A DNA stretch of 64,000 bases from an uncultured Chloroflexia bacterium (GTDB taxonomy: Bacteria; Chloroflexota; Limnocylindria; Limnocylindrales; CSP1-4). This document shows positions 14,240-25,342 of the stretch, piece by piece; position 1 is the first letter of the stretch; every line of letters begins with the position of its first letter. The DNA is taken from NCBI GenBank assembly GCA_963814115.1, contig CAWFBS010000006.1, positions 267,096 through 331,095 of the forward strand. The letters run 5' to 3'. The notes beneath the pieces are model-generated. The model saw only the letters and a list, made by a program, of their open reading frames with translations. It was not told the DNA's origin and made no database searches. The translations under genes were made by a program, and so were the position numbers.

Positions 14240-14449
14240 CCAGTGGACCGTCTCGCCGAGTGACGGACATCCACGGCGGGTGTCGGGACGCAGGTGTCCG
14301 GACGCGTGGGAGGCGGCGCGGTGCTACCAGCCTACCGCTTCTGAGCCTGCCCCGTGCGGCGAGGGCGGGCTCGGCGAGGCGCGGGCACTGGACGTGCCGG
14401 AAGTCCCTGGTGGCTTGACCGCTGTACCTCAATGGGACAATAGCGGGCA

Positions 14450-14524
14450 GCGGGACGCTCTGACGCGCGGGCCATGTCCACGGCCGCCCAAGGCCGCGCC
14501 GAGCCACTGGCGAGGCCGACCCGC
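14450..14524 (+). ncRNA. c-di-GMP-II-like riboswitch aptamer (variant), copy 1
   Basis: P1 GCGGG/CCCGC; kink-turn-like UGAC..CGAG; P3 GCGCGG/CCGCGC; loop GGCCGCC complementary to GGCG(AG)GCC; homologous to 23243-23315; lies in a 5' leader. Confidence 0.7.
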
Positions 14525-14549
14525 AGGCAAGCGTCCCGGGGAGGGCGAG

Positions 14550-16433
14550 ATGGGCGAACGCGGCCGGGCCAGCCGGTTCGTGGTCGGCATCGCGGTCACC
14601 GCTCTTCTCAGCGGATGTGCCGGGAGCGCGACATCCTCGCCGGCGCCTTCATCTGCTCCGCCGGCCGAGGGCCCGTCAGCTCCCGCCGCGACAGCAGCCA
14701 CACCGGCGGCCAGAGCGCCGTCGGCCACGTCGGGCACCCCGGCGACCGTCGAGTTGACCGGGTTCAGCGTGCGCCCGTTCGGCCTCGCGGTCACCACCAG
14801 CGCGTACTTCGCTGTCGACGCGGCCGGAAACGTCTACCTCCCCGGCGGGTCGAAAGGCGCGGCCCTTGGGAAGATCGCCCCCGACGGCTCGCTGGTCGCA
14901 CGCTGGGCCGGCTTCGACGTCGTGCCGGGTCAGCCGGACACGGTCGTGGGCGTCGCGGTTGACCCGGCGTCTGGTGACGTCTGGGTCACCGACACCACCG
15001 CCGACGCCGTGGTGCACCTGGCGTCCGACCTCACGCTGAAGGGTAAGTGGGGATCGACCGGCCCCGGCAAAGGCCAGTTCTTCAGCCCGGGCGGCATCGC
15101 CATCGACCCGCAGGGGAACATCGTCGTCGCGGACATGGGCAACGACCGCATCGAGACGTTCACACCCGACGGGAACGTGGTCACGGTCTGGGACGCGCCC
15201 GGCGGCAAGACCGCGCCCGTCGATGTCACGACCGACCCGGAGGGCAACGTCGTCGCCTCGACCATGCAGCCGCTCATGCTCACGGTCACTGGCGGTGAGG
15301 TCATCAAGCTCGGGCCGACCGGCAGCTCCCTCCTGACACTCCCGGACGCCGCGGGCATCGACGCGCTCACGTTCCCGGATGCCGCGGTCGATGCCACCGG
15401 GAACATCTACGAAGCGGACGCCTTGCTCGGCCTCGTGAAGTTCTCCGCGGACGGAAAGCAGTCGGGCACGTGGCAGATCCGCGGCGGCGGCCAGGCCGCC
15501 GTCGCGGTGCGCGTGGCACCGTCGGGGAACATCTACACGCTCGCCTGCGTTGGCCAGAACGGCGACTGCACACTCGCCGAGTACACGCCCGACATGCAAC
15601 TCGTCGCGACCTGGCACGCGTCCACCCCGGTGGACCACCCGGGGACCATGGTCGACGTGGGCGGCCACCGGCTGTACCTCCAGTGCGTGGGCTCGGGGAG
15701 CCCGACGATCGTCTGGGAGGCCGGATACAACGGGTCCGGCTGGCTGAACACCTCGCAGTACCTGATGGGCAAGCTGGCGGAGACGAGCCGTGTCTGCACC
15801 TACGACCGGGCGAACCTGGGGTGGAGCGACCGCGGCCCGACGGAGATGAGCTACTGGTCCCAGGCGGTCACGGACCTGCACACGGCCCTGGCGAAGGGCG
15901 GCGAGAAGGGACCGTACGTGATGGCCGGCCACTCGTACGGTGGACTTCTTGCGAGGCTGTTCGCGCTCACGTACCCCAAGGATGTTGCGGGTGTCGTCGC
16001 GGTCGACCCGTCCCATGAGGACGCGTGGGCTGGACCGGCAACCGATCCGACGGCACCGTTCGGCATGACGACGTGCACCGATGCCTCGTGCCCGCTGTAC
16101 GAGAACATCCAGGCGCTCAAGAAGCTCGAAGGCGGCAAGGTCGCGGGGTCGCTCGGCGCGCTCCCGCTCGTCGTCCTGTCCCACGCGCCGGACTTGCCGT
16201 GGTGGAACGCGGACTACGACGCGACGTGGGAGAAGCTCGGGGCCGACACCGCCACCGCATCGACCAACGCCCGGCACGTGATCGCGACGTGGTCCACCCA
16301 TGAGATCCCATACACGCAGCCCGGCCTCGTGATCGAGGCGGTGCGGCAGGTGGTCGCGGCGGCACGGGCGCCGAAGCACACGCTCCCGCCTTGCGGCGCG
16401 GCCTTCACCGCGCTGGGAGGTCAGTGCGAGTAG
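14550..16433 (+). CDS. Lipoprotein: NHL-repeat beta-propeller fused to alpha/beta hydrolase
   Basis: Lipobox LLSGC; NHL repeats (GQFFSPGGIAIDPQGNIVVADMGNDRI); YDRANLGWSD, nucleophile elbow GHSYGG, late His (STHEIP). Confidence 0.85.
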   Translation: MGERGRASRFVVGIAVTALLSGCAGSATSSPAPSSAPPAEGPSAPAATAATPAARAPSATSGTPATVELTGFSVRPFGLAVTTSAYFAVDAAGNVYLPGGSKGAALGKIAPDGSLVARWAGFDVVPGQPDTVVGVAVDPASGDVWVTDTTADAVVHLASDLTLKGKWGSTGPGKGQFFSPGGIAIDPQGNIVVADMGNDRIETFTPDGNVVTVWDAPGGKTAPVDVTTDPEGNVVASTMQPLMLTVTGGEVIKLGPTGSSLLTLPDAAGIDALTFPDAAVDATGNIYEADALLGLVKFSADGKQSGTWQIRGGGQAAVAVRVAPSGNIYTLACVGQNGDCTLAEYTPDMQLVATWHASTPVDHPGTMVDVGGHRLYLQCVGSGSPTIVWEAGYNGSGWLNTSQYLMGKLAETSRVCTYDRANLGWSDRGPTEMSYWSQAVTDLHTALAKGGEKGPYVMAGHSYGGLLARLFALTYPKDVAGVVAVDPSHEDAWAGPATDPTAPFGMTTCTDASCPLYENIQALKKLEGGKVAGSLGALPLVVLSHAPDLPWWNADYDATWEKLGADTATASTNARHVIATWSTHEIPYTQPGLVIEAVRQVVAAARAPKHTLPPCGAAFTALGGQCE

Positions 16434-16511
16434 GGGAAACAGGCTGGAATCCTGTGCCTCGGTAGGACAACGGGTGGCTGGGGCGGAACCTGCTCGGCGG
16501 AGGCAATTGGC

Positions 16512-16676
16512 ATGGACCTTGCCTCGGTGGCCGAAGACGGCTTCGGCTACGGCGCCCTTATTCGAGCTCGCTGGGATGATGCCGTCCGTCTCGGTGCTGG
16601 CGCCCTCGTCGTCCAGGCGTCGGGCATGTCGCGCCCGATCCTGGAACGGCTCGGGTTCCGTGCGACCGGTGCATGA
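16512..16676 (+). pseudogene. GNAT acetyltransferase C-terminal remnant
   Basis: Translates to ..YGALIRARWDDAVRLGAGALVVQASGMSRPILERLGF..; N-terminal part absent. Confidence 0.6.
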
Positions 16677-16733
16677 CGCTGCTCATCGACCGAGCGGCGT
16701 CCGACCACCCCGGGTGACGGCTCTTCCTGAGAG

Positions 16734-16755
16734 CGAAGCCGGGAGTTGGAGCGGG
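16734..16755 (-). repeat. Degenerate copy of the tRNA-Gly 3' end and flank (att-like)
   Basis: Minus strand CCCGCTCCAACTCCC-GGCTTCG vs CCCGCTCCA-CTCCCCGGCTTCG at 25254-25275. Confidence 0.55.
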
Positions 16756-16781
16756 CCGCCTACCGTGTCGTCACGGAGATG

Positions 16782-19700
16782 TCACGACACCATCGGGGAC
16801 GCGGCGGAGTGACCGGCCCGATCCGCTGAACGAACCGTCGCCGCGTCGAGCCGGGCGATGAACGGCGCGGCCTGGAGCCGAACGAGGATCTCGCGGGCGG
16901 CCGTCGGCGGCCGGCCGGACCTCCGGATCGGAAGGCTCGAGCAACGTCGCCATGGTGATCGCCGTGAGAGCCTCGCGCCAGGGCGCGCCGAGGTCGCGCC
17001 ACCCTGCGAGCGCCTCCCGGAAGGCCGACAGCGCCTCTCCTCCACGCCCTTCGAGCGCCGCCAGCCCGGCCCGGACCGTCCGGCGGTTCACGTCGACGAT
17101 CCTGCCGTGTGCCCCGGTCGCGTCCAGGGCCGCGAGCGCGGCGGCCGCCCGCTGACCGGTCGCGCTCCCAGAGCGCGCAGATGGCGGCATACGGGTAGAG
17201 GTGGCTCGCCTCATCGCGGGCAAACGTGCCCGCACTCCGTCACCGCGTCGTAGGCATCGGAAAGCCGGCCCGCCCCGAAGGCGACCCAGAAGCGCACGTC
17301 GAGGATCGACTCGCGCCATGACGTCTTCGTCCGAGGCGACCGATGAAACCGCTCCAGCCAGGCTTGTCTCCTCCGCCAGGTCCTCCCCGCGCAGGGAACC
17401 GACCATGAGACGACTGTACGGTCAGAAACGCCCGCTCGACGTCCTCCGGCGCGGTCCCCATGGCAGCGTCGATCTCAGCGCGCGCCCAGTCCCAGTCGCC
17501 CGTGTCCAATGGCGGCCTGCGTCGCGTTCACCAGAGTGAAGGCGTATCCGGCGCGATCGCCGCGCCGCGCCGCCGACGCATGAGCGCAGTCCGAGCGGCG
17601 TCGAACACTCCCCGGACGTCCGAGTCGATCAGGTACCCACTGAGGTTGTTCAGGCCTCTCCAGGTGATCGCCGCCAATCCGTTCGTCTCGGCAAGGTCGA
17701 TCCCCGTCCGGATTGCGCCAACGCCTTCGTAGGAGCGACGGAGAGAGCACAGGGCGGAACCGCGGGTGACCAGCGTGTCGGCCACGAGCGCCACGAGGTC
17801 GCCCCGCTCGGCCGCGGCCAGGGCACGATCGGCGACCTCGACCCCGCGCTGATGCTGCTGGCCGACGAAAGAGCGCCCGGGCGAGCTGACTGTCGAGGGC
17901 GACGGCCTCGGGGTCCCCGGCGAGGTCGGCGAACTCCGTGGCGGCGGGCTCGAGGATCGCCAGCGCCCGGCCGTAGCGGTTGCCGTGGATCAGCGCTGCA
18001 CCGAGCTCGGCGGTCGTGCGGGCGAGCCGCGGAGCGATCACCGAGCCCGCGGTGGATGTCGATGGCCTCGCACGAGATAGCGCTCCGCCGCCTCGTGGTC
18101 GGCCGCGAGGGAAGCCGAATGACCGGCACCGCTCGCGGAGGAGGGCCTGATCTCGCAGGTCGGTCGTCACGCTGAGCGCCTCCTCGAGGAAGGCGACGGC
18201 CTGCGCGTGGGAGCCCAGGGCGATGGCACGCTCGGCAGCCGCCCGGAGCGCCACCCGGGCCTGGGCCGCAAGGGTGTCCGCCTCGGGCCCCCGGGCGCGT
18301 TCCGGTGGGCGGCGAGGTAGTGGCCGGCAAGGGCGGCCGGCGAGCTCGTCGGTCCCGAGCGACTCGAAGTAGCGGGCGGCGGCGAGGTGACGGACCTTCC
18401 GGTCGCGCTTCGCGAGCGTGTTGTAGGCGACCTCGCGGACCAGCGATTGGACGAAGGCGTACTGGCCCCGCTCGGGGCTGCGCGGGTTGCCCTCGACCGC
18501 GAGGAGCTCGCGCCGAGCGAGGCTCCGCAGGCGCGGCTCGAGGGCCGGCTCGTCGATCCCGCTGACGGCCGCCAGGGCCAGCGAGGCGTGAAGGTCTGGC
18601 CGAGAACGGCGGCATCGAGCAGGAGGACCCGGTCGGCGGGCCTCGAGGGCATCGAGCCGGGCGGCGACGAGCTCGGTCAGCGTCTCGGGCACAGCGATGT
18701 CCGCGAGATCACCGGTCGGCCGGTAGGCCCCGTCGCTCGCCACGAGCTTGCCGTCGGCGAGGAGCATCCGGACCGTCTCGACCGCGTACAGGGGGACCCC
18801 GTCGGCCCGCTCGACGATCGAGCTGGACGGCCGCCTCGGGGAGCCCGGGGACGAGGCCGGCGAGGAGCTCGCGCATGGCGGCCTCCGGCAGCGGCTCCAG
18901 GTGGAGGGTCGCAAAGTTGCGCCGACCAGCGCCCCAGCCGGGACGGCGCTCGAGCAACTCCGGGCGCGCCAGCGTGAGGACGTAGATCGGCACGCCCCGC
19001 GACCAATCGAGCAGGTGGTCGATGAAGTCGAGGAGGCCCGAGTCGGCGTGGTGGAGGTCCTCGAAGACCATCACCACCGGGGCGACCGCTGCGAGCCGCT
19101 CGAAGAAGGTCCGCCAGGCGCTGAAGAAGTGCGCCGGGCCGGCGGCGCTCGCCTCGACCCCCAGCAGGGCAAGGAGAGCCGGCTCGATCCAGCGCCGCTC
19201 GTCGGGATCGGGCACATGGGCAGCCACCGTCTCGGCGATCTTGCGGCGCGTCGTCGCCTCGTCGTCGGTCTCGAGGAGGCCGGCCCGTGCGCGGACCATC
19301 TCGCCGAGCGCCCAGAACGTGATCCCGTCCCCGTAGGCGGGGCAGCGTCCTTCGTGCCAGAAGGTATCCTCGGCGAGCCCGTCGGCGTACTTGAGGAACT
19401 CCCAGGCGAGCCGCGTCTTGCCGATCCCGGCCTGGCCGGTGACCGAGACGTGGCGCGGCCGGCGCTCGCGGGCCGTGGCGTGGAAGAGGTCCTTGAGGAG
19501 GCGCAGCTCGTCGTCGCGGCCGACGAAGGGGGCCTCGAGCGTCTCCGCCCGGTTGCGGCCACCCCGTTCCGCGACGACGCGGAGGGCCCGCCAGGCGGGC
19601 ACTGGGGCGGTCTTGCCTTTGAGGGTCTGCTCGCCGGCCGGCTCGAAGACGATCGCCGCGGAGGCCGCCCGGGCAGTGGCTTCCCCGACGAGCACCGCGC

Positions 19701-20319
19701 CGGGCGGGGCGACCGACTGGAGCCGGGCGGCCGTGTTGACGAGGTCCCCGGCGACCATCCCCTGGCCGGTCGCGCCGATCGTCACGGCGGCCTCGCCAGT
19801 CAGGACCCCGGCCCGGGCAGCGATCGCAGGACCGAGCGTCCGGACAGCGTCGACGAGCTCGAGCCCGGCCCGCACCGCCCGTTCGGCGTCATCCTCGCGG
19901 GCGAGCGGGGCGCCCCAGACCGCCATGACGGCGTCGCCGATGAACTTCTCGACGCTCCCGCCGTGGCGGGCGATCACCTCGCCGGCGAGCTCGAAGTACC
20001 GAGAGAGCGTTTCGCGGACCTCCTCGGCGTCGCGCTCCTCGGCGAAGGGGGTGAAGCCGACCAGGTCAGCGAAGAGGACCGAGACGTGCCGGCGCTCGGC
20101 CACGGGAACGGGAGTCCGTGCGGGAGCTTCGGAGCGCCGCATCGCCGCAGGGGGTGGCGTTGCTCCGGTCACGAGCGGGGTCGCGCATTCGCCGCAGAAC
20201 TTCGCGTCGGCGCTGTTGGTCGCACCGCAGGACGGACAGCCCAACGCGAGTCGAGACGCACACTCCTTGCAGAACTTGCGCCCCGCCTCATTCTCGGTCC
20301 CGCAGTTCGCGCAGACCAC
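16782..20319 (-). pseudogene. Double zinc ribbon + class III nucleotide cyclase + AAA/STAND ATPase + TPR-like tail; 3' half multiply frameshifted
   Basis: CANCG..FCKEC..CPSCG..FCGEC; FADLVGFT, EKFIGDAVMA, GDLVNTAARLQ; FVGRDDEL, GQAGIGKTRL, FEDLH; C-terminal part spread over all three minus frames. Confidence 0.8.
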
Positions 20320-20586
20320 CCGGCGCTCCAATGCGACGTGAGGGACCGAGCGTACCGCAGGTAGCCCGCTACCGACAGGGGGATCTGTCGCCGCGACCGC
20401 ACCGACCCGCCGCCCGCCTCACGGCTCACCGCTCGATTTGTCTGTCAACTCGATTTGCCTGCCAAACGGCTCTGGCGAGCCAGGGCCGCCCGCAGTGGAG
20501 TGATCGCTGGCGACCGGGCCGCCACCAACAACCCGTGCCACCCGTCTCATCGGTGGCCCAACCCGCACCACGAGCAGCGGCGACAG

Positions 20587-21591
20587 ATGAACGCAAAGCG
20601 CCGTGCCGCGTCCCTTCTCATTGGGGTGATCCTTGCGGCGTGCGCGGGCACGTCGAGCCCGGCCGCGACGCCCGGCGCGAATGTGACTCCCGCAGCGCCC
20701 GCTTCGCTGCCACTGTCGGGCTCGACGGCGAGCCCGACAACATCGCCCAGCCCGACGCCCACGCCCATCGTGTTGCCCTCCGCTCCGGCGCCGGTTCCAT
20801 CACCCGATGCTGGGCCGACGCCCGGGCTGGAGAACACGCTCGTGGCCCGCATCTTCGTGTACCCCGACGTGACGGTCGGCCGGATCCCCCCGATGCTCAG
20901 CGTCTACGCGGACGGCCGGGTCCTCCTGCCCTCCTGGAGCGCAGATGGGAGGATGGACTTCATCGCCCGCCGGCTCACCCCGGCCGGCCTGGCGGCGCTT
21001 CGCTCGGCTCTCGAAGCAAGCGGGTTCTTCGCCGGCGACATCGAGATCCCGCCGACGCAGGCGACCGACTCCGGCTACACGACGTACACCGTCTCGCTCC
21101 GGGTCGGAGACCGACTCGCCACCGCCCGCACGACGAACTCCGCGATGTCGGCGCAGGGTCGTGCGCTCGTGGACCTCGCCGAGCGGTGGACGCATCCCGA
21201 GCGCGTGCTTCCCGCGGACGCCTGGCTTCCCGGTCAGTCCATCTACCAGGGGTCGAGCTGGTACCTAGTGCTGCGGCTCCTGCCGGACTTCGTCTCGACC
21301 CAGGATGTGGACTCGACGGCGCTCGAGGCGGAGATCGGCGACCTGGCGTCGTTCGGCCACCTGATGGAGGCGTTCGAGGACGGGAGCACGGTCCGCTGCG
21401 GGATCGTCGGGGCGGCCGCCGTCGCGCGGATCGTGGCTGCCCTGGTGGCCGAGGGCGTCTACGCCGAGGCGGGCGGAGCCGAGTACCGCGCCGACATGCG
21501 CTGGGTCGGCGGCAACGGGATCGTCACTCTCGGTGCCTACCTGATGCTGCCGGACGACCCGGTCACGTGCCCCGCGGACATCATCGTGTGA
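20587..21591 (+). CDS. Hypothetical lipoprotein with Pro/Thr/Ser linker
   Basis: MNAKRR + hydrophobic stretch + LAAC; SPSPTPTP linker; PMLSVYADGRVL domain. Confidence 0.75.
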   Translation: MNAKRRAASLLIGVILAACAGTSSPAATPGANVTPAAPASLPLSGSTASPTTSPSPTPTPIVLPSAPAPVPSPDAGPTPGLENTLVARIFVYPDVTVGRIPPMLSVYADGRVLLPSWSADGRMDFIARRLTPAGLAALRSALEASGFFAGDIEIPPTQATDSGYTTYTVSLRVGDRLATARTTNSAMSAQGRALVDLAERWTHPERVLPADAWLPGQSIYQGSSWYLVLRLLPDFVSTQDVDSTALEAEIGDLASFGHLMEAFEDGSTVRCGIVGAAAVARIVAALVAEGVYAEAGGAEYRADMRWVGGNGIVTLGAYLMLPDDPVTCPADIIV

Positions 21592-21870
21592 CGGTGGCTG
21601 ACACCCCCACCACCTCGCCCGGCTCTAGTGGCCGCCGTGCCCGGCCGTGCTGTCGTCAACGCAGCCATCGAACGGCCACGCTATCGGAGCGACCAGGCAG
21701 GCGCCGCCGATCCGGGCCCGATCGGCCCGACGAGTTCGAGCCATCTGGCAATTCGATACATCATGGCCGGGTGACACATAGTCGGCCGAGATGCCGACCT
21801 TGCTGACCTCCCCGACCGCGGTGGACACGGCACCGCGACCCGACCAGGGCGTGGCGAGCCCGCGATCCCG

Positions 21871-23122
21871 GTGAGAACGCACACGATCCGGGTCCGGCTC
21901 GACGAACAGGGTCACCTCGTCCTGCCCGCGAAGCTGGCCGAGCGGTTCGGGCTCGTCGACGGCGCGGCCGTCCGCCTCGATGAACGCGCCGACACGCTCA
22001 CCATCGGCCGGGCGACCGCAAGCCTCGCCCGGGTGTACGTGGAGCCGACGACCCTCTGCAACCTGCTCTGCAGCACCTGCATCCGCAACGTGTGGGACGA
22101 GCCGCAGGGATTGATGTCGACGGACACGTTCGCCCGGATCATCGAGGGCGTGCAGGAGGTCTCGCCTCTCCCGACCCTGTTCTTCGGTGGGTTCGGCGAA
22201 CCGTTCGCGCATCCAGACCTCGTCTCGATGCTCGCCGCCGCGAAGTCGGTCGGCTGTCGGGTCGAGCTCATCACGAACGGCACGCGGCTTGCCGACGAAG
22301 CCCGACGCGAACTCGTTCGCATCGGGCTCGACCGGCTGTGGGTCTCGATTGACGGGGCGACGCCCGAGAGCTACGCCGACGTCCGTCTATGGGACGCCTT
22401 GCCGGAGGTGATCGAGAACCTCACTCGACTGAAGGAGCTGCGCACGACCCATGGTGCCGGGCTGCCCAGGCTCGGGATCGCGTTCGTGGCAATGAAGCGG
22501 AACATCGCGGACCTTCGAGAGGTCGTCTGCCTGGGTCAGAAGCTGGGGGCTGACCGGTTCTCGGTCAGCAACGTCCTTGCACACACACGCGAGATGCGCG
22601 ACCAGGTGCTCTATGCCAACTCGATCGACACGGAAGAGGTCGAGCCCTCCATATGGGATCCGGAGATCTCGCTGCCGCGGATGGACATCGACGCGCTGAC
22701 CACCGAGCCTCTCGTTCGAGCCCAGGCGGGCCGTGACCGGGCGGTGGCTCCCGGACCCAGCGCGAGGACCCCGCTCGAACACTTGTCCCTTCGTCCAGAA
22801 GGGCAGCGTCTCGGTACGCTGGGATGGGGCCGTCAGCCCGTGTCTGCCGCTACTCCACACCCACCGCAGCTACCTGGACTTTCGGCCCCGGATGAGCCAC
22901 GCCTTCTCCGTGGGCAACGTCAATCAACGGAGCCTGATCGACTTGTGGAACGATCCCGGCTACGTGGGGCTGCGCGAACGGCTCCTGGCCTTCGACTTCG
23001 CGCCCTGCACCATCTGCAACAGCTGCGACATGGCCGACGAGAACCTCGAGGACTGTTTCGGGAGCCCGACCCCGGCGTGCGGCGGCTGCCTCTGGGCACA
23101 GCGGTTCATCCAGTGCCCGTAG
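21871..23122 (+). CDS. Radical SAM/SPASM protein with N-terminal AbrB-like domain (tungsten-oxidoreductase maturase-like); frameshift near 22730
   Basis: RLDEQGHLVLP; CNLLCSTC; GGFGEP; ITNGT; second frame CPFV..VSPC..CTICNSC..DC..CGGCLWAQRFIQCP. Confidence 0.8.
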
Positions 23123-23242
23123 GGGCGACTGCTCGCGGGCTCGGGACCCGCTTACCGGTCGCTGTTCGGCGACCCACCACCAGTCAGGTTCAGGAACGCC
23201 GCCTGTGCAACACCCGCGCCCGTCAAGCGTCTTGTCTGCAAC

Positions 23243-23315
23243 GCGGGAGGCGATGACACGCGGCCCATGTCCCGGTCGCCGCGACCGCGCCGAGCCATTG
23301 GCGAGACCAATCCGC
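23243..23315 (+). ncRNA. c-di-GMP-II-like riboswitch aptamer (variant), copy 2
   Basis: P1 GCGGG/UCCGC; P2 GGC/GCC with GAU bulge and tandem GA (kink-turn); P3 CGCGG/CCGCG; loop GGUCGCC complementary to GGCGA(GA)CC; followed by SD GAGGAGG. Confidence 0.75.
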
Positions 23316-23344
23316 GATGCGTCCCGGATCGAGGAGGGAACGCG

Positions 23345-25126
23345 ATGCGTGGCGTGCGGATCGGCTCCGGGGGCCGGATCCTGTCTCTCGGCATCGGCCT
23401 GGCGCTGATCATCACGATGGCCGACGTCACGCCGGCGGGCGCCGCGACGGTCACGAACATCTGGCAGGCGAAGGTAGGGAGCGCCGGGGCAAACGGCACC
23501 GCGACGATCCAGGCGTACACGAGTGGAACGGGCTCGATCGCGCTCAAGCTCGCGAAGCTCACGGCGTCGACCAGCCTGCCGGTCAGGATCACCAAGGGGA
23601 CGTGCAGTTCTGTCGGCGCGGTCCTCCTCACGCTCCCGTCGATCAAGACGACGAACGTCGGGGCGGCATCACGGACGTCCTCCTTGAGTGCGACGCAGGT
23701 CAAAGCGGTGGCGATCGCCACGACCGGCCCGAGTGGGATCGCGATCCGTGTGGGTTCCGGCTCGACCCTGAAGTGCGGCGTCTTCAGGTCGAAGCCAGTC
23801 GTCACCGTCTCGGGTCCTGCAGGGGTCCTGACAACCGGGGGGACGGGAACGTTCACGGCCACGGTCCGCGGCTCATCCAACACCGCGGTCGCCTGGTCTG
23901 TCGTGGAGCGCGGTGGCGGGTCCATCACCCAGGATGGCGTCTACACGGCGCCCGCGACGCCTGGCACCTACACCGTGAAAGCGACGTCCCAAGCCGACAC
24001 CACCGCCTCGGGCACCGCCCGAGTGCCGGTCGTCATCCCGGTCGGCCACGTCCCGGGCTACGACGTGGGGGTGGACTACTACTCCTACGCCGTGGACTTC
24101 CACTCATCGGCGTTCATCACGCAGTACCAGAAGCCGGCCGTCCGCCAGACCGTCCGGACGCAGCTCCAGGGGATGGCGGACCGCGGCGCGACGGTCATCT
24201 CGACGCGGATCTGGTTCGTCACCGAGCCCGGGACGACGAACTTCGGGGACACGTGGCGGGCGACCTTCCCCATGAGCGACCAGGAGAAGCAGAACCTCCG
24301 CGCGTTCGCCCAGGACGTCGCGGCCGTCCGGGGTGCCGGGGGTAACCGGCTCCGCCTCGACCTCGGCCTGTTCTGGCTTGGCGCGGCCGACTACACCAGG
24401 GGTACCCTGGCCTCGGGCCTCGGCTGGACGCCACTCGCGCCCACGGAGTTCACGCGCCGCGTCGCGGTGACGACCGACAAGGTCCTCGCCGCCGTTGCCG
24501 GCGTGAAGAGACCCGACGGGGTGCTCGTCGTTGACACGATCTACCTCGACGGCGAGGTCATGGTCGGGGCCAAGGCCAACCAGGAGTGGTTCCTCACGAC
24601 GCACTACCCGCGCTTCGTGGCCCGCGTGGCCGCGGCGGGCTTCCGGCCGTCGCTCTACTTCAACGTTGCGAGTGCCGCCGAGGATGTCCTGGCTCCCGGC
24701 TACATCGACGCGGACTACCACCCGATCCTCGACGGTCACATCTCGATGTTCTGGGTGTATCGCAGCCTGAGGTTCATGGCCGACCACGGCCTGCCGCTCC
24801 CCGACCGGGTGGACTTCTCGTGGTACGTCCCAGCGACCGCCGACGCCTCCTCCGCCACGCTGCTGGCGCGCGTCCTCGACGACGCGGACGCGACGCTGCC
24901 ATCGCTCGGCCTGCCGAAGACGTACGGAATCGCCGAGACCTACTACTACGTCGACGCCACGCCGCGCCGGGAACTCGGGCAGGCGATCGCCGCACAGGCG
25001 GCCGCCAACCCGCGCCTGCAGCGGGTTACGTTCTGGACGCCGGGCTGGGGTCCGACCGGGTCACACCTCGGGTACCCGTTCGCCATCGAGGACTTCTACC
25101 CGCCTGCCGACGCAACGGGCGGCTAG
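23345..25126 (+). CDS. Secreted protein: N-terminal beta domain, Ig-like domain, putative glycoside hydrolase TIM barrel
   Basis: Signal peptide ending AGAA; FTATVRG..VAWSV..GSITQDGVYTAP..GTYTVKATS; GVDYY, YLDGEV, IAETY, VTFW. Confidence 0.7.
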   Translation: MRGVRIGSGGRILSLGIGLALIITMADVTPAGAATVTNIWQAKVGSAGANGTATIQAYTSGTGSIALKLAKLTASTSLPVRITKGTCSSVGAVLLTLPSIKTTNVGAASRTSSLSATQVKAVAIATTGPSGIAIRVGSGSTLKCGVFRSKPVVTVSGPAGVLTTGGTGTFTATVRGSSNTAVAWSVVERGGGSITQDGVYTAPATPGTYTVKATSQADTTASGTARVPVVIPVGHVPGYDVGVDYYSYAVDFHSSAFITQYQKPAVRQTVRTQLQGMADRGATVISTRIWFVTEPGTTNFGDTWRATFPMSDQEKQNLRAFAQDVAAVRGAGGNRLRLDLGLFWLGAADYTRGTLASGLGWTPLAPTEFTRRVAVTTDKVLAAVAGVKRPDGVLVVDTIYLDGEVMVGAKANQEWFLTTHYPRFVARVAAAGFRPSLYFNVASAAEDVLAPGYIDADYHPILDGHISMFWVYRSLRFMADHGLPLPDRVDFSWYVPATADASSATLLARVLDDADATLPSLGLPKTYGIAETYYYVDATPRRELGQAIAAQAAANPRLQRVTFWTPGWGPTGSHLGYPFAIEDFYPPADATGG

Positions 25127-25266: not shown

Positions 25267-25342
25267 TGGAGCGGGAGACGGGGTTCGAACCCGCGACATG
25301 CAGCTTGGAAGGCTGCCGCTCTGCCAGCTGAGCTACTCCCGC
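25267..25342 (-). tRNA. tRNA-Gly (anticodon TCC)
   Basis: GCGGGAGTAGCTCAGCTGGCAGAGCGGCAGCCTTCCAAGCTGCATGTCGCGGGTTCGAACCCCGTCTCCCGCTCCA; cloverleaf with encoded CCA. Confidence 0.98.

What the first reader, a model, noticed from the sequence alone, without database searches (positions are those of the whole stretch)
14450..23315. Two homologous c-di-GMP-II-like riboswitches in front of unrelated secreted-protein genes
Seen: the leaders at 14450-14524 and 23243-23315 align along their whole length (TGAC.CGCGG.CCATGTCC..GG.CGCC..CCGCGCCGAGCCA.TGGCGAG.CC.A.CCGC). Both are followed by GCGTCCCG and then the SD; GCGTCCCG can pair with the aptamer 5' end, giving an alternative fold. Known: P1, kink-turn, P3 and a loop-to-3' pseudoknot define class II c-di-GMP riboswitches. 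Inference: a cyclic-dinucleotide regulon controls translation of an NHL/hydrolase lipoprotein and an uncharacterised secreted glycosidase.
Basis: partly seen in the sequence, partly recalled or inferred. Interest (0 to 1): 0.78.

Follow-up and report, generated by a model that had tools for sequence, protein, structure and literature searches.

The report
Two variant c-di-GMP-II-type riboswitch leaders
Both leaders are real copies of an already catalogued variant of the class II cyclic-di-GMP riboswitch whose ligand is still unproven, and this soil bacterium carries about a dozen of them in front of mostly secreted-protein genes.

Summary
Both leaders match Rfam RF03169 (c-di-GMP-II-GAG): 23237-23321 at 74 bits and 14444-14530 at 56.4 bits, cut-off 40. 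Both fall below the canonical c-di-GMP-II cut-off (41.1 and 24.0 against 53.5). Relative to the canonical family consensus, the pocket adenine A69, which reads one guanine of c-di-GMP, is a G here. Copy 14444 also has G at A70.

The fold is supported on 57 copies, pseudoknot included. The genome holds 11 such copies, one canonical copy with a terminator, and 5 sub-threshold relatives. In the same genus, 23 of 24 genomes carry 2-47 matches.

No terminator follows either copy, and the start codon lies 19-23 nt downstream. Control is therefore most likely translational and involves the conserved linker GCGUCCC(G). Whether the ligand turns expression on or off is unresolved, and so is the ligand itself.

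The downstream genes are a lipoprotein with a beta-propeller and an alpha/beta hydrolase domain, and a secreted protein whose fold resembles a TIM-barrel glycoside hydrolase.

Verdict: new members of a known orphan-like variant family. It is a useful system, not a new kind.

The parts
14415..14441 (+). Putative promoter of copy 1. TTGACC lies at 14415-14420, followed by a 15-nt spacer and TGG-GACAAT (hexamer 14436-14441), which looks like an extended -10. This would start the RNA at about 14447-14449.
   Evidence: Read from the sequence. The same TGGGACAAT or TAGGACAAT lies 2-4 nt before two other copies. The sigma-70 scan tool did not call it, so this is inference only.
14444..14530 (+). Aptamer copy 1, c-di-GMP-II-GAG type. 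Its outer P1 is weak, and the first P2 pair is C.C.
   Evidence: RF03169 56.4 bits against a cut-off of 40, E 1.7e-8. RF01786 scores only 24.0 bits against a cut-off of 53.5. RF03170 scores 51.5 bits.
14481..14488 (+). 5' strand of the pseudoknot in the P3 loop of copy 1 (CGGCCGCC).
14509..14518 (+). 3' strand of the pseudoknot of copy 1 (GGCGAGGCCG). The positions equivalent to canonical A69 and A70 are G and G.
   Evidence: This is the only one of 57 aligned copies with G at position 70.
14531..14538 (+). Linker GCGUCCCG. It is the exact complement of the aptamer 5' strand CGGGACGC (14451-14458). CGUCC (14532-14536) can also pair with GGGCG (14543-14547).
14538..14545 (+). Shine-Dalgarno-like run GGGGAGGG, 4 nt before the ATG.
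14550..16433 (+). Gene 1, 627 aa. The N-terminus has a lipobox-like LLSGC. It carries a beta-propeller (SGL/NHL hits) followed by an alpha/beta hydrolase domain.
   Evidence: Pfam: Abhydrolase_1 4e-12, SGL 5.9e-7, NHL 2.5e-6. N-terminus.
23205..23231 (+). ECF-sigma-like promoter of copy 2: TGCAAC, 16 nt, then CGTC. It ends 5 nt before the aptamer.
   Evidence: The 27-mer has 7 matches in the genome at up to 5 mismatches. Five of them stand at -32 of variant aptamers and one stands before a truncated aptamer. Reading it as an ECF promoter (AAC...CGT rule) is recalled knowledge and an inference.
23237..23321 (+). Aptamer copy 2, c-di-GMP-II-GAG type.
   Evidence: RF03169 74 bits, E 5.4e-13. RF01786 scores 41.1 bits, below the cut-off of 53.5. 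RF03170 scores 69.9 bits.
23273..23280 (+). 5' strand of the pseudoknot in the P3 loop of copy 2 (CGGUCGCC).
23300..23309 (+). 3' strand of the pseudoknot of copy 2 (GGCGAGACCA). The bulge G-A sits where the canonical class has A69-A70.
23319..23326 (+). Linker GCGUCCCG. Its first three bases are also the last bases of P1. It matches 7 of 8 positions of the 5' strand CGGGAGGC, and it can also pair with GGGAACGC (23337-23344).
23331..23338 (+). Shine-Dalgarno-like run GAGGAGGG, 6 nt before the ATG.
23345..25126 (+). Gene 2, 593 aa. It has a signal-peptide-like N-terminus, a poorly modelled N-terminal 150 residues, a beta-rich stretch at about 150-235 (my reading of the model: a beta-sandwich), and a (beta/alpha)8 barrel at about 240-565.
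   Evidence: No Pfam hit and no PDB sequence hit. AlphaFold2 model with mean pLDDT 66.9. Foldseek finds GH53, GH5 and GH2 enzymes at E 2e-7 to 6e-6, with a best target-normalised TM-score of 0.63.

Best explanation
Both leaders are 5'-UTR aptamers of the Rfam family RF03169, the c-di-GMP-II-GAG variant of the class II c-di-GMP riboswitch. Each sits at or next to the predicted transcript start and ends 19-23 nt before the start codon of a secreted or lipoprotein gene.

Shown:
- Family membership by covariance model.
- The P1/P2/P3/pseudoknot fold, with compensatory changes.
- The G that replaces pocket adenine A69.
- The absence of a terminator.
- The conserved linker GCGUCCC(G).

Inferred:
- The RNA binds a dinucleotide second messenger in a remodelled pocket. 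My odds are about 0.4 that it is still c-di-GMP, about 0.45 that it is another dinucleotide such as 3',3'-cGAMP, c-di-AMP or pGpG, and about 0.15 something else or nothing.
- Binding locks the 5' strand GGGAGGC (GGGACGC in copy 1) into P1 and P2. That frees the linker, which folds onto the 3' half of the SD, so the ligand lowers translation. Without ligand, the 5' strand pairs with the linker and the SD stays open.
- I put about 0.5 on this OFF direction. I put about 0.35 on the opposite: the linker's GCG is shared with outer P1, so ligand binding would dissolve the SD hairpin and give an ON switch.

The confidence given is for the identity (a variant class II aptamer acting in cis on translation). 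It does not cover the ligand or the direction.
For: Family membership: RF03169 scores 74 and 56.4 bits against a cut-off of 40.

Fold: on 57 copies, 82.1% of cells are paired, against 32-40% when partners are slid. 21 of 30 pairs show changes on both sides, and 0 of 500 shuffles reach this. The pseudoknot helix was not part of the model that made the alignment. It is 86% paired, and 4 of its 8 pairs show changes on both sides.

Pocket: the RF01786 consensus GUGC-AA-CCG (shown aligned to this genome's canonical copy) reads GCGA-GA-CCG here, and 40 of 57 copies have A-G-A. A69 makes three hydrogen bonds to one guanine of c-di-GMP, and A70 intercalates (PMC13715770, whole text read).

Platform:
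- 0 terminator-like sites at either leader.
- 0 of 41 related leaders have a run of 4 or more T. The start codon lies a median of 19 nt after the aptamer.
- GTCCC is in the linker of 17 of 41 leaders, against about 0.04 expected per leader.
- Copy 1's unique G-to-C change breaks the first P2 pair and makes the 5' strand a perfect 8-bp complement of the linker.
- Without pseudoknot and ligand terms, the alternative fold is close to the free minimum. Copy 1: -55.5 against -57.4 kcal/mol, with the aptamer fold at -41.5. Copy 2: -46.9 against -52.1, with the aptamer fold at -37.5.

Transcript: one contig from an RNA library spans 23255-23514, running from the aptamer into the coding sequence. This is weak evidence.
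Against: No binding or expression data exist, so the ligand and the direction are inference.

Against the linker pairing with the 5' strand:
- The three copies whose 5' strand is GGAAGGC keep GCGUCCC or GCGUCGC. There is no compensatory change there.
- In many related leaders the linker abuts the SD with 0-3 nt between them, which leaves no room for an anti-SD hairpin.
- The SD windows pair no better with their own aptamer parts than with those of other copies (permutation p 0.90-0.95).

Pointing to an ON switch: with the aptamer enforced, the SD and start codon were more open in 24 of 42 leaders and less open in 3. That test is biased towards this result.

Against a changed ligand:
- Three of 57 copies on the same scaffold have A at position 69.
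- The genome has 18 GGDEF, 6 EAL and 1 DAC match but no SMODS-type cyclase.
- No GGDEF has Ser or Thr at the PleD D344 position in my alignment.

Against the promoter reading: the sigma-70 scan tool called no promoter at either leader.
Confidence: 0.8

Rival explanations
1. These are ordinary c-di-GMP riboswitches. The A69-to-G change is tolerated, and the RNAs still sense c-di-GMP made by the genome's many GGDEF enzymes. This would be simply a large c-di-GMP regulon of surface and secreted proteins.
For: - The genome has 18 GGDEF and 6 EAL matches but only one canonical c-di-GMP-II aptamer.
- There is no SMODS cyclase and no Hypr-like GGDEF by my alignment.
- Secreted and surface proteins are typical c-di-GMP targets (recalled).
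- Three of 57 copies on the same scaffold carry A at position 69.
- The class II pocket already accepts cGAMP isomers in an engineered variant, so it is plastic (PMC13715770).
Against: - A69 is a direct three-hydrogen-bond contact of one guanine.
- G at that position is kept in 43 of 57 copies, 40 of them as the full A-G-A pattern.
- A canonical copy with A69 coexists in the same genome with a different platform, a terminator.
- Rfam keeps the variants as separate families.
- By my recollection, their authors proposed a changed ligand. That paper is not held, so this is unchecked.
Confidence: 0.4
2. This is an ON switch. Without ligand, the linker GCGUCCC forms a hairpin with the 3' half of the SD and the spacer. 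Ligand-stabilised outer P1 takes the linker's GCG away and opens the SD.
For: - In copy 2, G23319-G23321 belong both to P1 and to the hairpin GCGUCCC/GGGAACGC.
- The canonical copies seen here have terminators that overlap the aptamer 3' strand CCGACC, which is the ON design.
- With the aptamer enforced, the SD and start codon were more open in 24 of 42 leaders.
Against: - In copy 1 the linker does not overlap P1 as Rfam aligns it.
- The accessibility test is biased, because a locked upstream region offers fewer partners.
- This model gives no role to the perfect match between the linker and the 5' strand in copy 1.
Confidence: 0.35
3. These are decayed or ligand-independent leader elements. 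The copies are duplicated promoter-leader cassettes kept as stable 5' structures or protein-binding sites, without small-molecule sensing. This applies at least to copy 1.
For: - Copy 1 has G at position 70, unique among 57 copies. It also has a mismatched first P2 pair and a weak outer P1, and it scores lowest of the variant copies together with two others.
- A truncated aptamer with its own promoter exists at C9:161559-161666.
- Promoter, aptamer and the MRR... gene starts look duplicated as units.
Against: - The core and the pseudoknot are under strong conservation across a genus and beyond, with compensatory changes.
- Copy 1 still passes the RF03169 and RF03170 cut-offs.
Confidence: 0.1

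Closest known systems
c-di-GMP-II-GAG riboswitch aptamer (Rfam RF03169, clan CL00127)
   Same: The full-length match covers model positions 1-86 and is over the curated cut-off. The P1, P2, P3 and pseudoknot are the same, the GAG triplet sits in the pseudoknot 3' strand, and the element lies in a 5' UTR on the gene's strand.
   Different: - Copy 1 also has G at the A70 position and a C.C first P2 pair.
- Most copies in this genus have C opposite A68, where Rfam's consensus has u (35 of 57).
- The copy number per genome is unusually high, at 2-47 matches.
- Three further copies replace one k-turn strand by an extra hairpin and fall below the cut-off.
Canonical c-di-GMP-II riboswitch (Rfam RF01786; structure 3Q3Z)
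   Same: The overall architecture is the same. So are many core nucleotides: GGA-GGC, UGA, GAGCC, and ACCG with the equivalent of G73.
   Different: - Both copies score below the cut-off (41.1 and 24.0 against 53.5).
- GUGC-AA-CCG becomes GCGA-GA-CCG, so the contact A69 is G.
- The platform is translational. The canonical copies seen here, in this genome and in three other genomes of the phylum, carry terminators.
c-di-GMP-II-GCG variant (Rfam RF03170)
   Same: Both copies also pass this model's cut-off (69.9 and 51.5 against 47.9). By my column mapping it shares the G at position 69.
   Different: Both copies score lower than with RF03169, and the triplet here is GAG rather than GCG.
GEMM-I c-di-GMP to 3',3'-cGAMP specificity switch (G20 to A20 in Geobacter; recalled, and cited as references 8 and 9 in PMC13715770)
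   Same: A single change in a base that reads the ligand base, inside an otherwise conserved cyclic-dinucleotide aptamer. This is the precedent for expecting a changed ligand.
   Different: It is a different fold (class I). It has been shown experimentally, whereas nothing has been shown for the variant here.

Membership tests
RF03169 c-di-GMP-II-GAG | Covariance-model score at or above the curated gathering score (40 bits), full length. | tested here: met
   74 bits (23237-23321) and 56.4 bits (14444-14530), model positions 1-86.
RF03169 c-di-GMP-II-GAG | P1, P2 and P3 helices supported by compensatory changes. | tested here: met
   On 57 copies, P1 has 10 of 11 pairs and P3 has 7 of 8 pairs with changes on both sides. 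P2 is nearly invariant. Overall 82.1% of cells are paired, against 32-40% when slid. The alignment was fitted to these three helices.
RF03169 c-di-GMP-II-GAG | Pseudoknot between the P3 loop and the 3' tail. | tested here: met
   The helix is 86.0% paired, and 4 of 8 pairs have changes on both sides. An example is GGUCACC with GGUGA. The pseudoknot was not part of the model that made the alignment.
RF03169 c-di-GMP-II-GAG | Variant triplet GAG in the pseudoknot 3' strand, where the canonical class has GCA (A69 to G). The column mapping is mine. | tested here: met
   The sequence is GGCGAGACCA in copy 2 and GGCGAGGCCG in copy 1.
RF03169 c-di-GMP-II-GAG | K-turn between P2 and P3. | tested here: inconclusive
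   Only the sequence pattern was read: GGC-UCU/GAU-GA on the 5' side and GA-GCC on the 3' side. The geometry was not tested.
RF03169 c-di-GMP-II-GAG | Cis position: in the 5' UTR, on the same strand, directly upstream of a gene. | tested here: met
   The ATG lies 19 and 23 nt after the aptamers.
RF03169 c-di-GMP-II-GAG | Binding of a specific ligand, which is not established for this family as far as I could find. | not testable with these tools
   No paper in the held library gives a ligand. The paper that described the variants is not held.
RF01786 canonical c-di-GMP-II | Covariance-model score at or above 53.5 bits. | tested here: not met
   41.1 and 24.0 bits. Only C20:33222-33306 passes in this genome, at 68.3 bits.
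RF01786 canonical c-di-GMP-II | Pocket adenines A69 and A70 in the pseudoknot bulge. | tested here: not met
   The bulge is G-A in copy 2 and G-G in copy 1.
RF01786 canonical c-di-GMP-II | Binds c-di-GMP. | not testable with these tools
   This needs in-line probing or ITC.
RF03170 c-di-GMP-II-GCG | Score over the cut-off of 47.9 bits and the triplet GCG. | tested here: not met
   The scores pass (69.9 and 51.5) but are lower than with RF03169, and the triplet is GAG.

The most novel reading that the evidence does not exclude
The A69-to-G variant senses a messenger other than c-di-GMP, for example 3',3'-cGAMP, c-di-AMP or the breakdown product pGpG. In this soil lineage it would run a second, separate dinucleotide regulon of a dozen to nearly fifty leaders for secreted proteins. 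That regulon would sit beside a canonical c-di-GMP switch in the same cell and, in a subset of leaders, be stacked on an ECF-sigma-type promoter to give two-input control. The closest named records are MAGs labelled Chloroflexia.
Probability: 0.35. Interest if true: 0.7.

Novelty: new member of a known kind. Interest (0 to 1): 0.4.

Why it matters
As far as I could find, the ligand of the c-di-GMP-II variant families has never been reported. This lineage offers an unusually rich natural test set, all in one genome:
- 11 variant copies.
- Paralogs that differ only at pocket positions 68-70, including one with the canonical A at position 69.
- One canonical copy.
- A sub-type with an extra hairpin.

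That set could show whether a one-base change created a new second-messenger sensor. It could also show what signal governs secreted hydrolases and lectin-like proteins in abundant, uncultured soil bacteria. If the RNAs simply bind c-di-GMP, the finding is ordinary annotation.

Tried and rejected
1. SD pairing with the P3 loop. Many SD regions looked complementary to the C-rich P3 loop. However, own-leader pairing was no better than cross-leader pairing for the loop, the 5' strand or the 3' half (n = 41, p 0.93, 0.90, 0.95). I dropped this as specific support.

2. Accessibility modelling with and without the aptamer enforced. It gave 24 leaders more open, 3 less open and 15 similar, out of 42. 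I judged it biased, and the 'unpaired SD' measure counts an SD sitting in a small hairpin loop as open. I did not use it to set the direction.

3. Unconstrained minimum-free-energy folds do not recover the aptamer, because the pseudoknot is not modelled.

4. The sigma-70 and terminator scan found nothing at either leader. The promoter assignments therefore rest on my reading of the sequence.

5. Source of cGAMP. There is no SMODS match. No GGDEF has Ser or Thr at the PleD D344 position in a MAFFT alignment of 17 of the 18 GGDEF matches; I left out the weakest, partial match. The Hypr rule is recalled.

6. An ECF sigma gene next to the promoter group. None of the 21 Sigma70_r4_2 matches lies beside those loci.

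7. Public runs. The RNA run X18 holds only a small share. Its contigs leave parts of the gene uncovered, and they cannot show a start, a strand or a level.

8. The phylum draw (37 of 151 genomes over the cut-off) is not variant-specific, because the model also hits canonical copies. It includes the unpublished genome G184.

9. The orthologue in L050 (72% identity to gene 2) has no aptamer at the gathering threshold. Only L052, 1 of 8 related loci, has one.

10. Literature. No held paper names a ligand. The two key papers are not held.

Full report
**Observation**

The two leaders are there and are homologous. Over the full matches, 61 of 85 positions where both copies have a base agree. GCGTCCCG follows both, at 14531-14538 and 23319-23326. 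It is the exact complement of 14451-14458 in copy 1 and matches 7 of 8 positions of 23244-23251 in copy 2. SD-like purine runs and ATG codons (14550, 23345) follow within 19-23 nt.

**Identity**

A gathering-threshold Rfam scan of the whole window gives three matches. Two are RF03169 (c-di-GMP-II-GAG): 23237-23321 at 74 bits and 14444-14530 at 56.4 bits, cut-off 40. The third is a tRNA at 25270-25342 on the minus strand.

With the canonical model RF01786 the two copies score 41.1 and 24.0 bits, below its cut-off of 53.5. With the sister variant RF03170 (GCG) they score 69.9 and 51.5, over its cut-off of 47.9 but below their GAG scores. They are therefore members of a catalogued variant family, not of the canonical class.

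**Structure**

I built a model from the 11 variant copies of this genome. I used it to align 57 distinct copies from 48 loci of this genome, its genus, and a few other genomes of the phylum.

- On that alignment, 82.1% of cells form standard pairs, against 32-40% when the 3' partners are slid by 1-3 columns.
- 21 of 30 pairs show changes on both sides, and 0 of 500 column shuffles reach the observed values.
- The alignment was fitted to P1-P3, which inflates those helices.
- The pseudoknot was not in the model. It is 86.0% paired, and 4 of its 8 pairs show double changes, for example loop GGUCACC with tail GGUGA.
- One row (L064) comes from a genome marked unpublished (G184). No claim depends on it.

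**Pocket**

In the solved canonical structure (3Q3Z) the contacts are as follows, described in PMC13715770 (whole text read):
- One guanine of c-di-GMP makes three hydrogen bonds to the sugar edge of A69.
- The other guanine is read by G73 and the ribose of A70.
- A70 intercalates between the two bases.
- An A-U pair of P2 stacks on the ligand backbone.

I lined up the Rfam consensus lines. The canonical GUGC-AA-CCG corresponds to GCGA-GA-CCG here, so A69 is G, A70 and G73 are kept, and the first P2 pair is G-C.

Of 57 copies, 40 have A-G-A at positions 68-70, and 35 of those have a C opposite A68 in the loop rather than U. Copy 23237 is of the U type. Copy 14444 is C/A-G-G, and it is the only one of 57 with G at position 70. 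Three copies on the same scaffold have A at position 69.

Copy 14444 also has C instead of G at the first P2 position. That breaks the P2 pair and at the same time makes its 5' strand perfectly complementary to the linker.

**Distribution**

- The 3.15-Mb assembly (96% complete) has 17 RF03169 matches at E up to 0.001, and 12 of them are over the cut-off.
- One of the 12, C20:33222-33306, is canonical. It scores 68.3 bits with RF01786 and only 45.4 with the GAG model. It is followed by a terminator-like stem and T run that overlaps its 3' strand.
- The genome therefore has 11 variant copies, 1 canonical copy and 5 sub-threshold matches.
- Three of the sub-threshold matches share an extra hairpin in place of one k-turn strand. 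The hairpin covaries: GGGACC/GGUCCC against AGAACC/GGUUCU.
- Seven of the 17 matches lie on contig C9, which has 67.9% GC against about 71% elsewhere.
- In the same genus, 23 of 24 other genomes have matches, between 2 and 47 per genome. None of 16 genomes of the other sampled family of the order has one; those genomes are 1.0-1.4 Mb.
- In an even draw of the phylum, 37 of 151 genomes are over the cut-off. The model also hits canonical copies, so this figure is not specific to the variant.
- The closest named records for gene 2 are MAGs labelled uncultured Chloroflexia, at 72-74% identity.

**Transcript start**

Copy 2 is preceded by GTGCAACACCCGCGCCCGTCAAGCGTC (23205-23231). The 27-mer has 7 matches in the genome at up to 5 mismatches:
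- 5 begin 32 nt before a variant aptamer.
- 1 precedes a truncated aptamer at C9:161591-161666, which scores 26.7 bits.
- 1 was not examined.

TGCAAC, 16 nt, then CGTC fits the AAC...CGT pattern of ECF-sigma promoters. That pattern is recalled and the assignment is inferred. It would start the RNA at the first bases of P1.

Copy 1 has TTGACC, a 15-nt spacer, and TGG-GACAAT ending 2 nt before the match. Two other copies share the -10. The consensus scan tool called no sigma-70 promoter at either site.

One contig from a soil RNA library (263 nt, 11 differences) runs from 23255 to 23514, from the aptamer into the coding region. Contigs cannot show a start, and DNA carry-over is possible. In DNA runs the aptamer bins reach a summed depth of 120-295, against 1-19 for the gene. 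This fits a conserved multi-copy element in the community.

**Expression platform**

- Neither leader has a terminator-like site.
- I compared 41 related leaders in which an SD and a start codon could be found. These came from 47 distinct leaders after I dropped 9 rows that were canonical, distant or truncated.
- None of the 41 has a run of four T.
- The start codon lies a median of 19 nt after the aptamer (range 9-53).
- GTCCC occurs in the linker of 17 of the 41, against about 0.04 expected per leader.
- By contrast, the canonical copies (own C20; L062, L066, L068) carry CCGACC...GGUCGG-U-run terminators.
- Control is therefore most likely at translation initiation.

Two wirings fit the sequence.

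(a) OFF switch. The linker is an anti-SD that can pair either with the aptamer 5' strand GGGAGGC/GGGACGC or with the SD region. Candidate SD-side pairings are 14532-14536 with 14543-14547, 23322-23325 with 23336-23339, and the longer GCGUCCC with GGGAACGC. Ligand binding locks the 5' strand and releases the anti-SD.

(b) ON switch. The linker's GCG is shared with outer P1 (copy 2), so ligand-stabilised P1 dissolves the SD hairpin.

Energies without pseudoknot and ligand terms, in kcal/mol:

| Copy | Free minimum | Aptamer fold | Alternative fold |
|---|---|---|---|
| Copy 1 (14444) | -57.4 | -41.5 | -55.5 |
| Copy 2 (23237) | -52.1 | -37.5 | -46.9 |

For (a): the perfect complement created in copy 1, and the near-identity of the 5' strand and the SD.

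Against (a): there is no compensation in the three GGAAGGC copies, and the linker abuts the SD in many relatives.

For (b): the canonical design, and the biased accessibility result.

A test for leader-specific SD pairing was negative. I commit to (a) at about 0.5 and (b) at about 0.35.

**Regulated genes**

Gene 1 (14550-16433, 627 aa) has a lipobox-like LLSGC, beta-propeller hits (SGL, NHL) and an alpha/beta hydrolase domain.

Gene 2 (23345-25126, 593 aa):
- It has no Pfam hit and no PDB sequence hit.
- Language-model neighbours are GH5/GH10-type clusters at 0.81-0.85, which is a lead only.
- A model from a 9-sequence alignment has mean pLDDT 66.9. Residues 1-150 are not modelled and the barrel is mostly confident.
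- Foldseek finds GH53 galactanases, GH5 mannanases and GH2 glucuronidases at E 2e-7 to 6e-6, with 9-16% identity and a best target TM-score of 0.63.
- I did not check catalytic residues.

Other variant copies in this genome precede:
- an SRPBCC protein;
- a GDSL lipase;
- a C-type-lectin-domain protein;
- a beta-helix protein;
- a PD40 beta-propeller lipoprotein;
- several proteins with no family match.

Of the 41 related leaders, 24 precede ORFs with signal-peptide-like N-termini by a crude rule, and 7 of those have a lipobox-like motif. Among the 36 of those ORFs that are 60 aa or longer, the commonest Pfam families are Polyketide_cyc2 (4), SnoaL_2 (3) and methyltransferases (2).

**Ligand**

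The genome has 18 GGDEF, 6 EAL and 1 DAC match and no SMODS match. None of the 17 aligned GGDEF domains has Ser or Thr at the PleD D344 position (the rule is recalled). So c-di-GMP, its product pGpG, and c-di-AMP have obvious sources, while cGAMP has none that I could see.

The strict keeping of G at a direct contact, next to a canonical A69 copy in the same cell, argues for a changed or narrowed specificity. The gene classes and the cyclase repertoire argue for c-di-GMP. I cannot decide this in silico.

**Comparison, novelty and limits**

These are new, unannotated members of a known family, and this lineage has an unusually large paralog set of it. The family's ligand is not given in any paper of the held library. 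The 2017 paper that, by my recollection, defined the variants and suggested other signalling molecules is not held. The 2011 structure paper is not held either. Earlier binding tests may therefore exist that I could not see.

Noticed in passing
G000 C20:33222-33306 (L020:423-507; terminator L020:495-518): This is the only canonical c-di-GMP-II aptamer of the genome (RF01786, 68.3 bits). Its terminator-like stem and T run overlap the aptamer 3' strand. Only very short ORFs follow it.
   Followed up: partly
G000 C19:48114-48220, C19:50092-50198, C3:181538-181643: These three copies keep the pseudoknot strands and the GAG triplet but carry an extra covarying hairpin where the 5' k-turn strand should be. 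They score 30-35 bits, below the Rfam cut-off, so routine annotation would miss them. They precede a lipoprotein-like ORF, a DUF11 protein and an SCO4226-like protein.
   Followed up: partly
G000 C9:161559-161666 (L005:921-996): A truncated aptamer that lacks the pseudoknot 3' strand. It keeps its own copy of the ECF-like promoter and lies between two intact riboswitch-gene units.
   Followed up: partly
about 60 nt upstream of several aptamers, e.g. G000 C9:215307, C9:216523, C9:162101, C2:47088; also L052:780-800: The repeated element CCGGGCGTCCGGGGGCC has 29 matches in the genome at up to 2 mismatches, and 6 of them cluster in C9:161.5-165 kb. It often lies upstream of the riboswitch promoters. 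Its role is unknown; it could be the end of the upstream unit or part of a duplicated cassette.
   Followed up: partly
window 25270-25342 (-): A tRNA gene (Rfam, 68.8 bits) lies 144 nt after the stop codon of gene 2, on the other strand. By my reading of the alignment its anticodon loop is CUUCCAA. I did not run ARAGORN.
   Followed up: no
window 18709-20331 (-): Between the two leaders lies a gene with double zinc ribbons, a class III adenylate/guanylate cyclase domain and an AAA_16 ATPase domain. I saw no link to the riboswitches.
   Followed up: no
window 21871-23122 (+): Radical SAM and SPASM domain hits lie directly upstream of copy 2. They fall in two overlapping reading frames, which may mean a frameshift or two genes.
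   Followed up: no
start codons downstream of many copies, e.g. window 23345; L005:1608; L004:2698: Many regulated ORFs begin ATGCG(T/C)CG (MRR...). The linker often reads (G)ATGCGTCCC, repeating the gene start. This suggests that promoter, aptamer and signal-peptide start were duplicated as one unit.
   Followed up: no
window 23208-23361 in runs X5, X1, X18: The summed contig depth over the aptamer is 10-40 times that over the gene in soil metagenomes. This shows that the aptamer core is a multi-copy sequence in those communities.
   Followed up: partly
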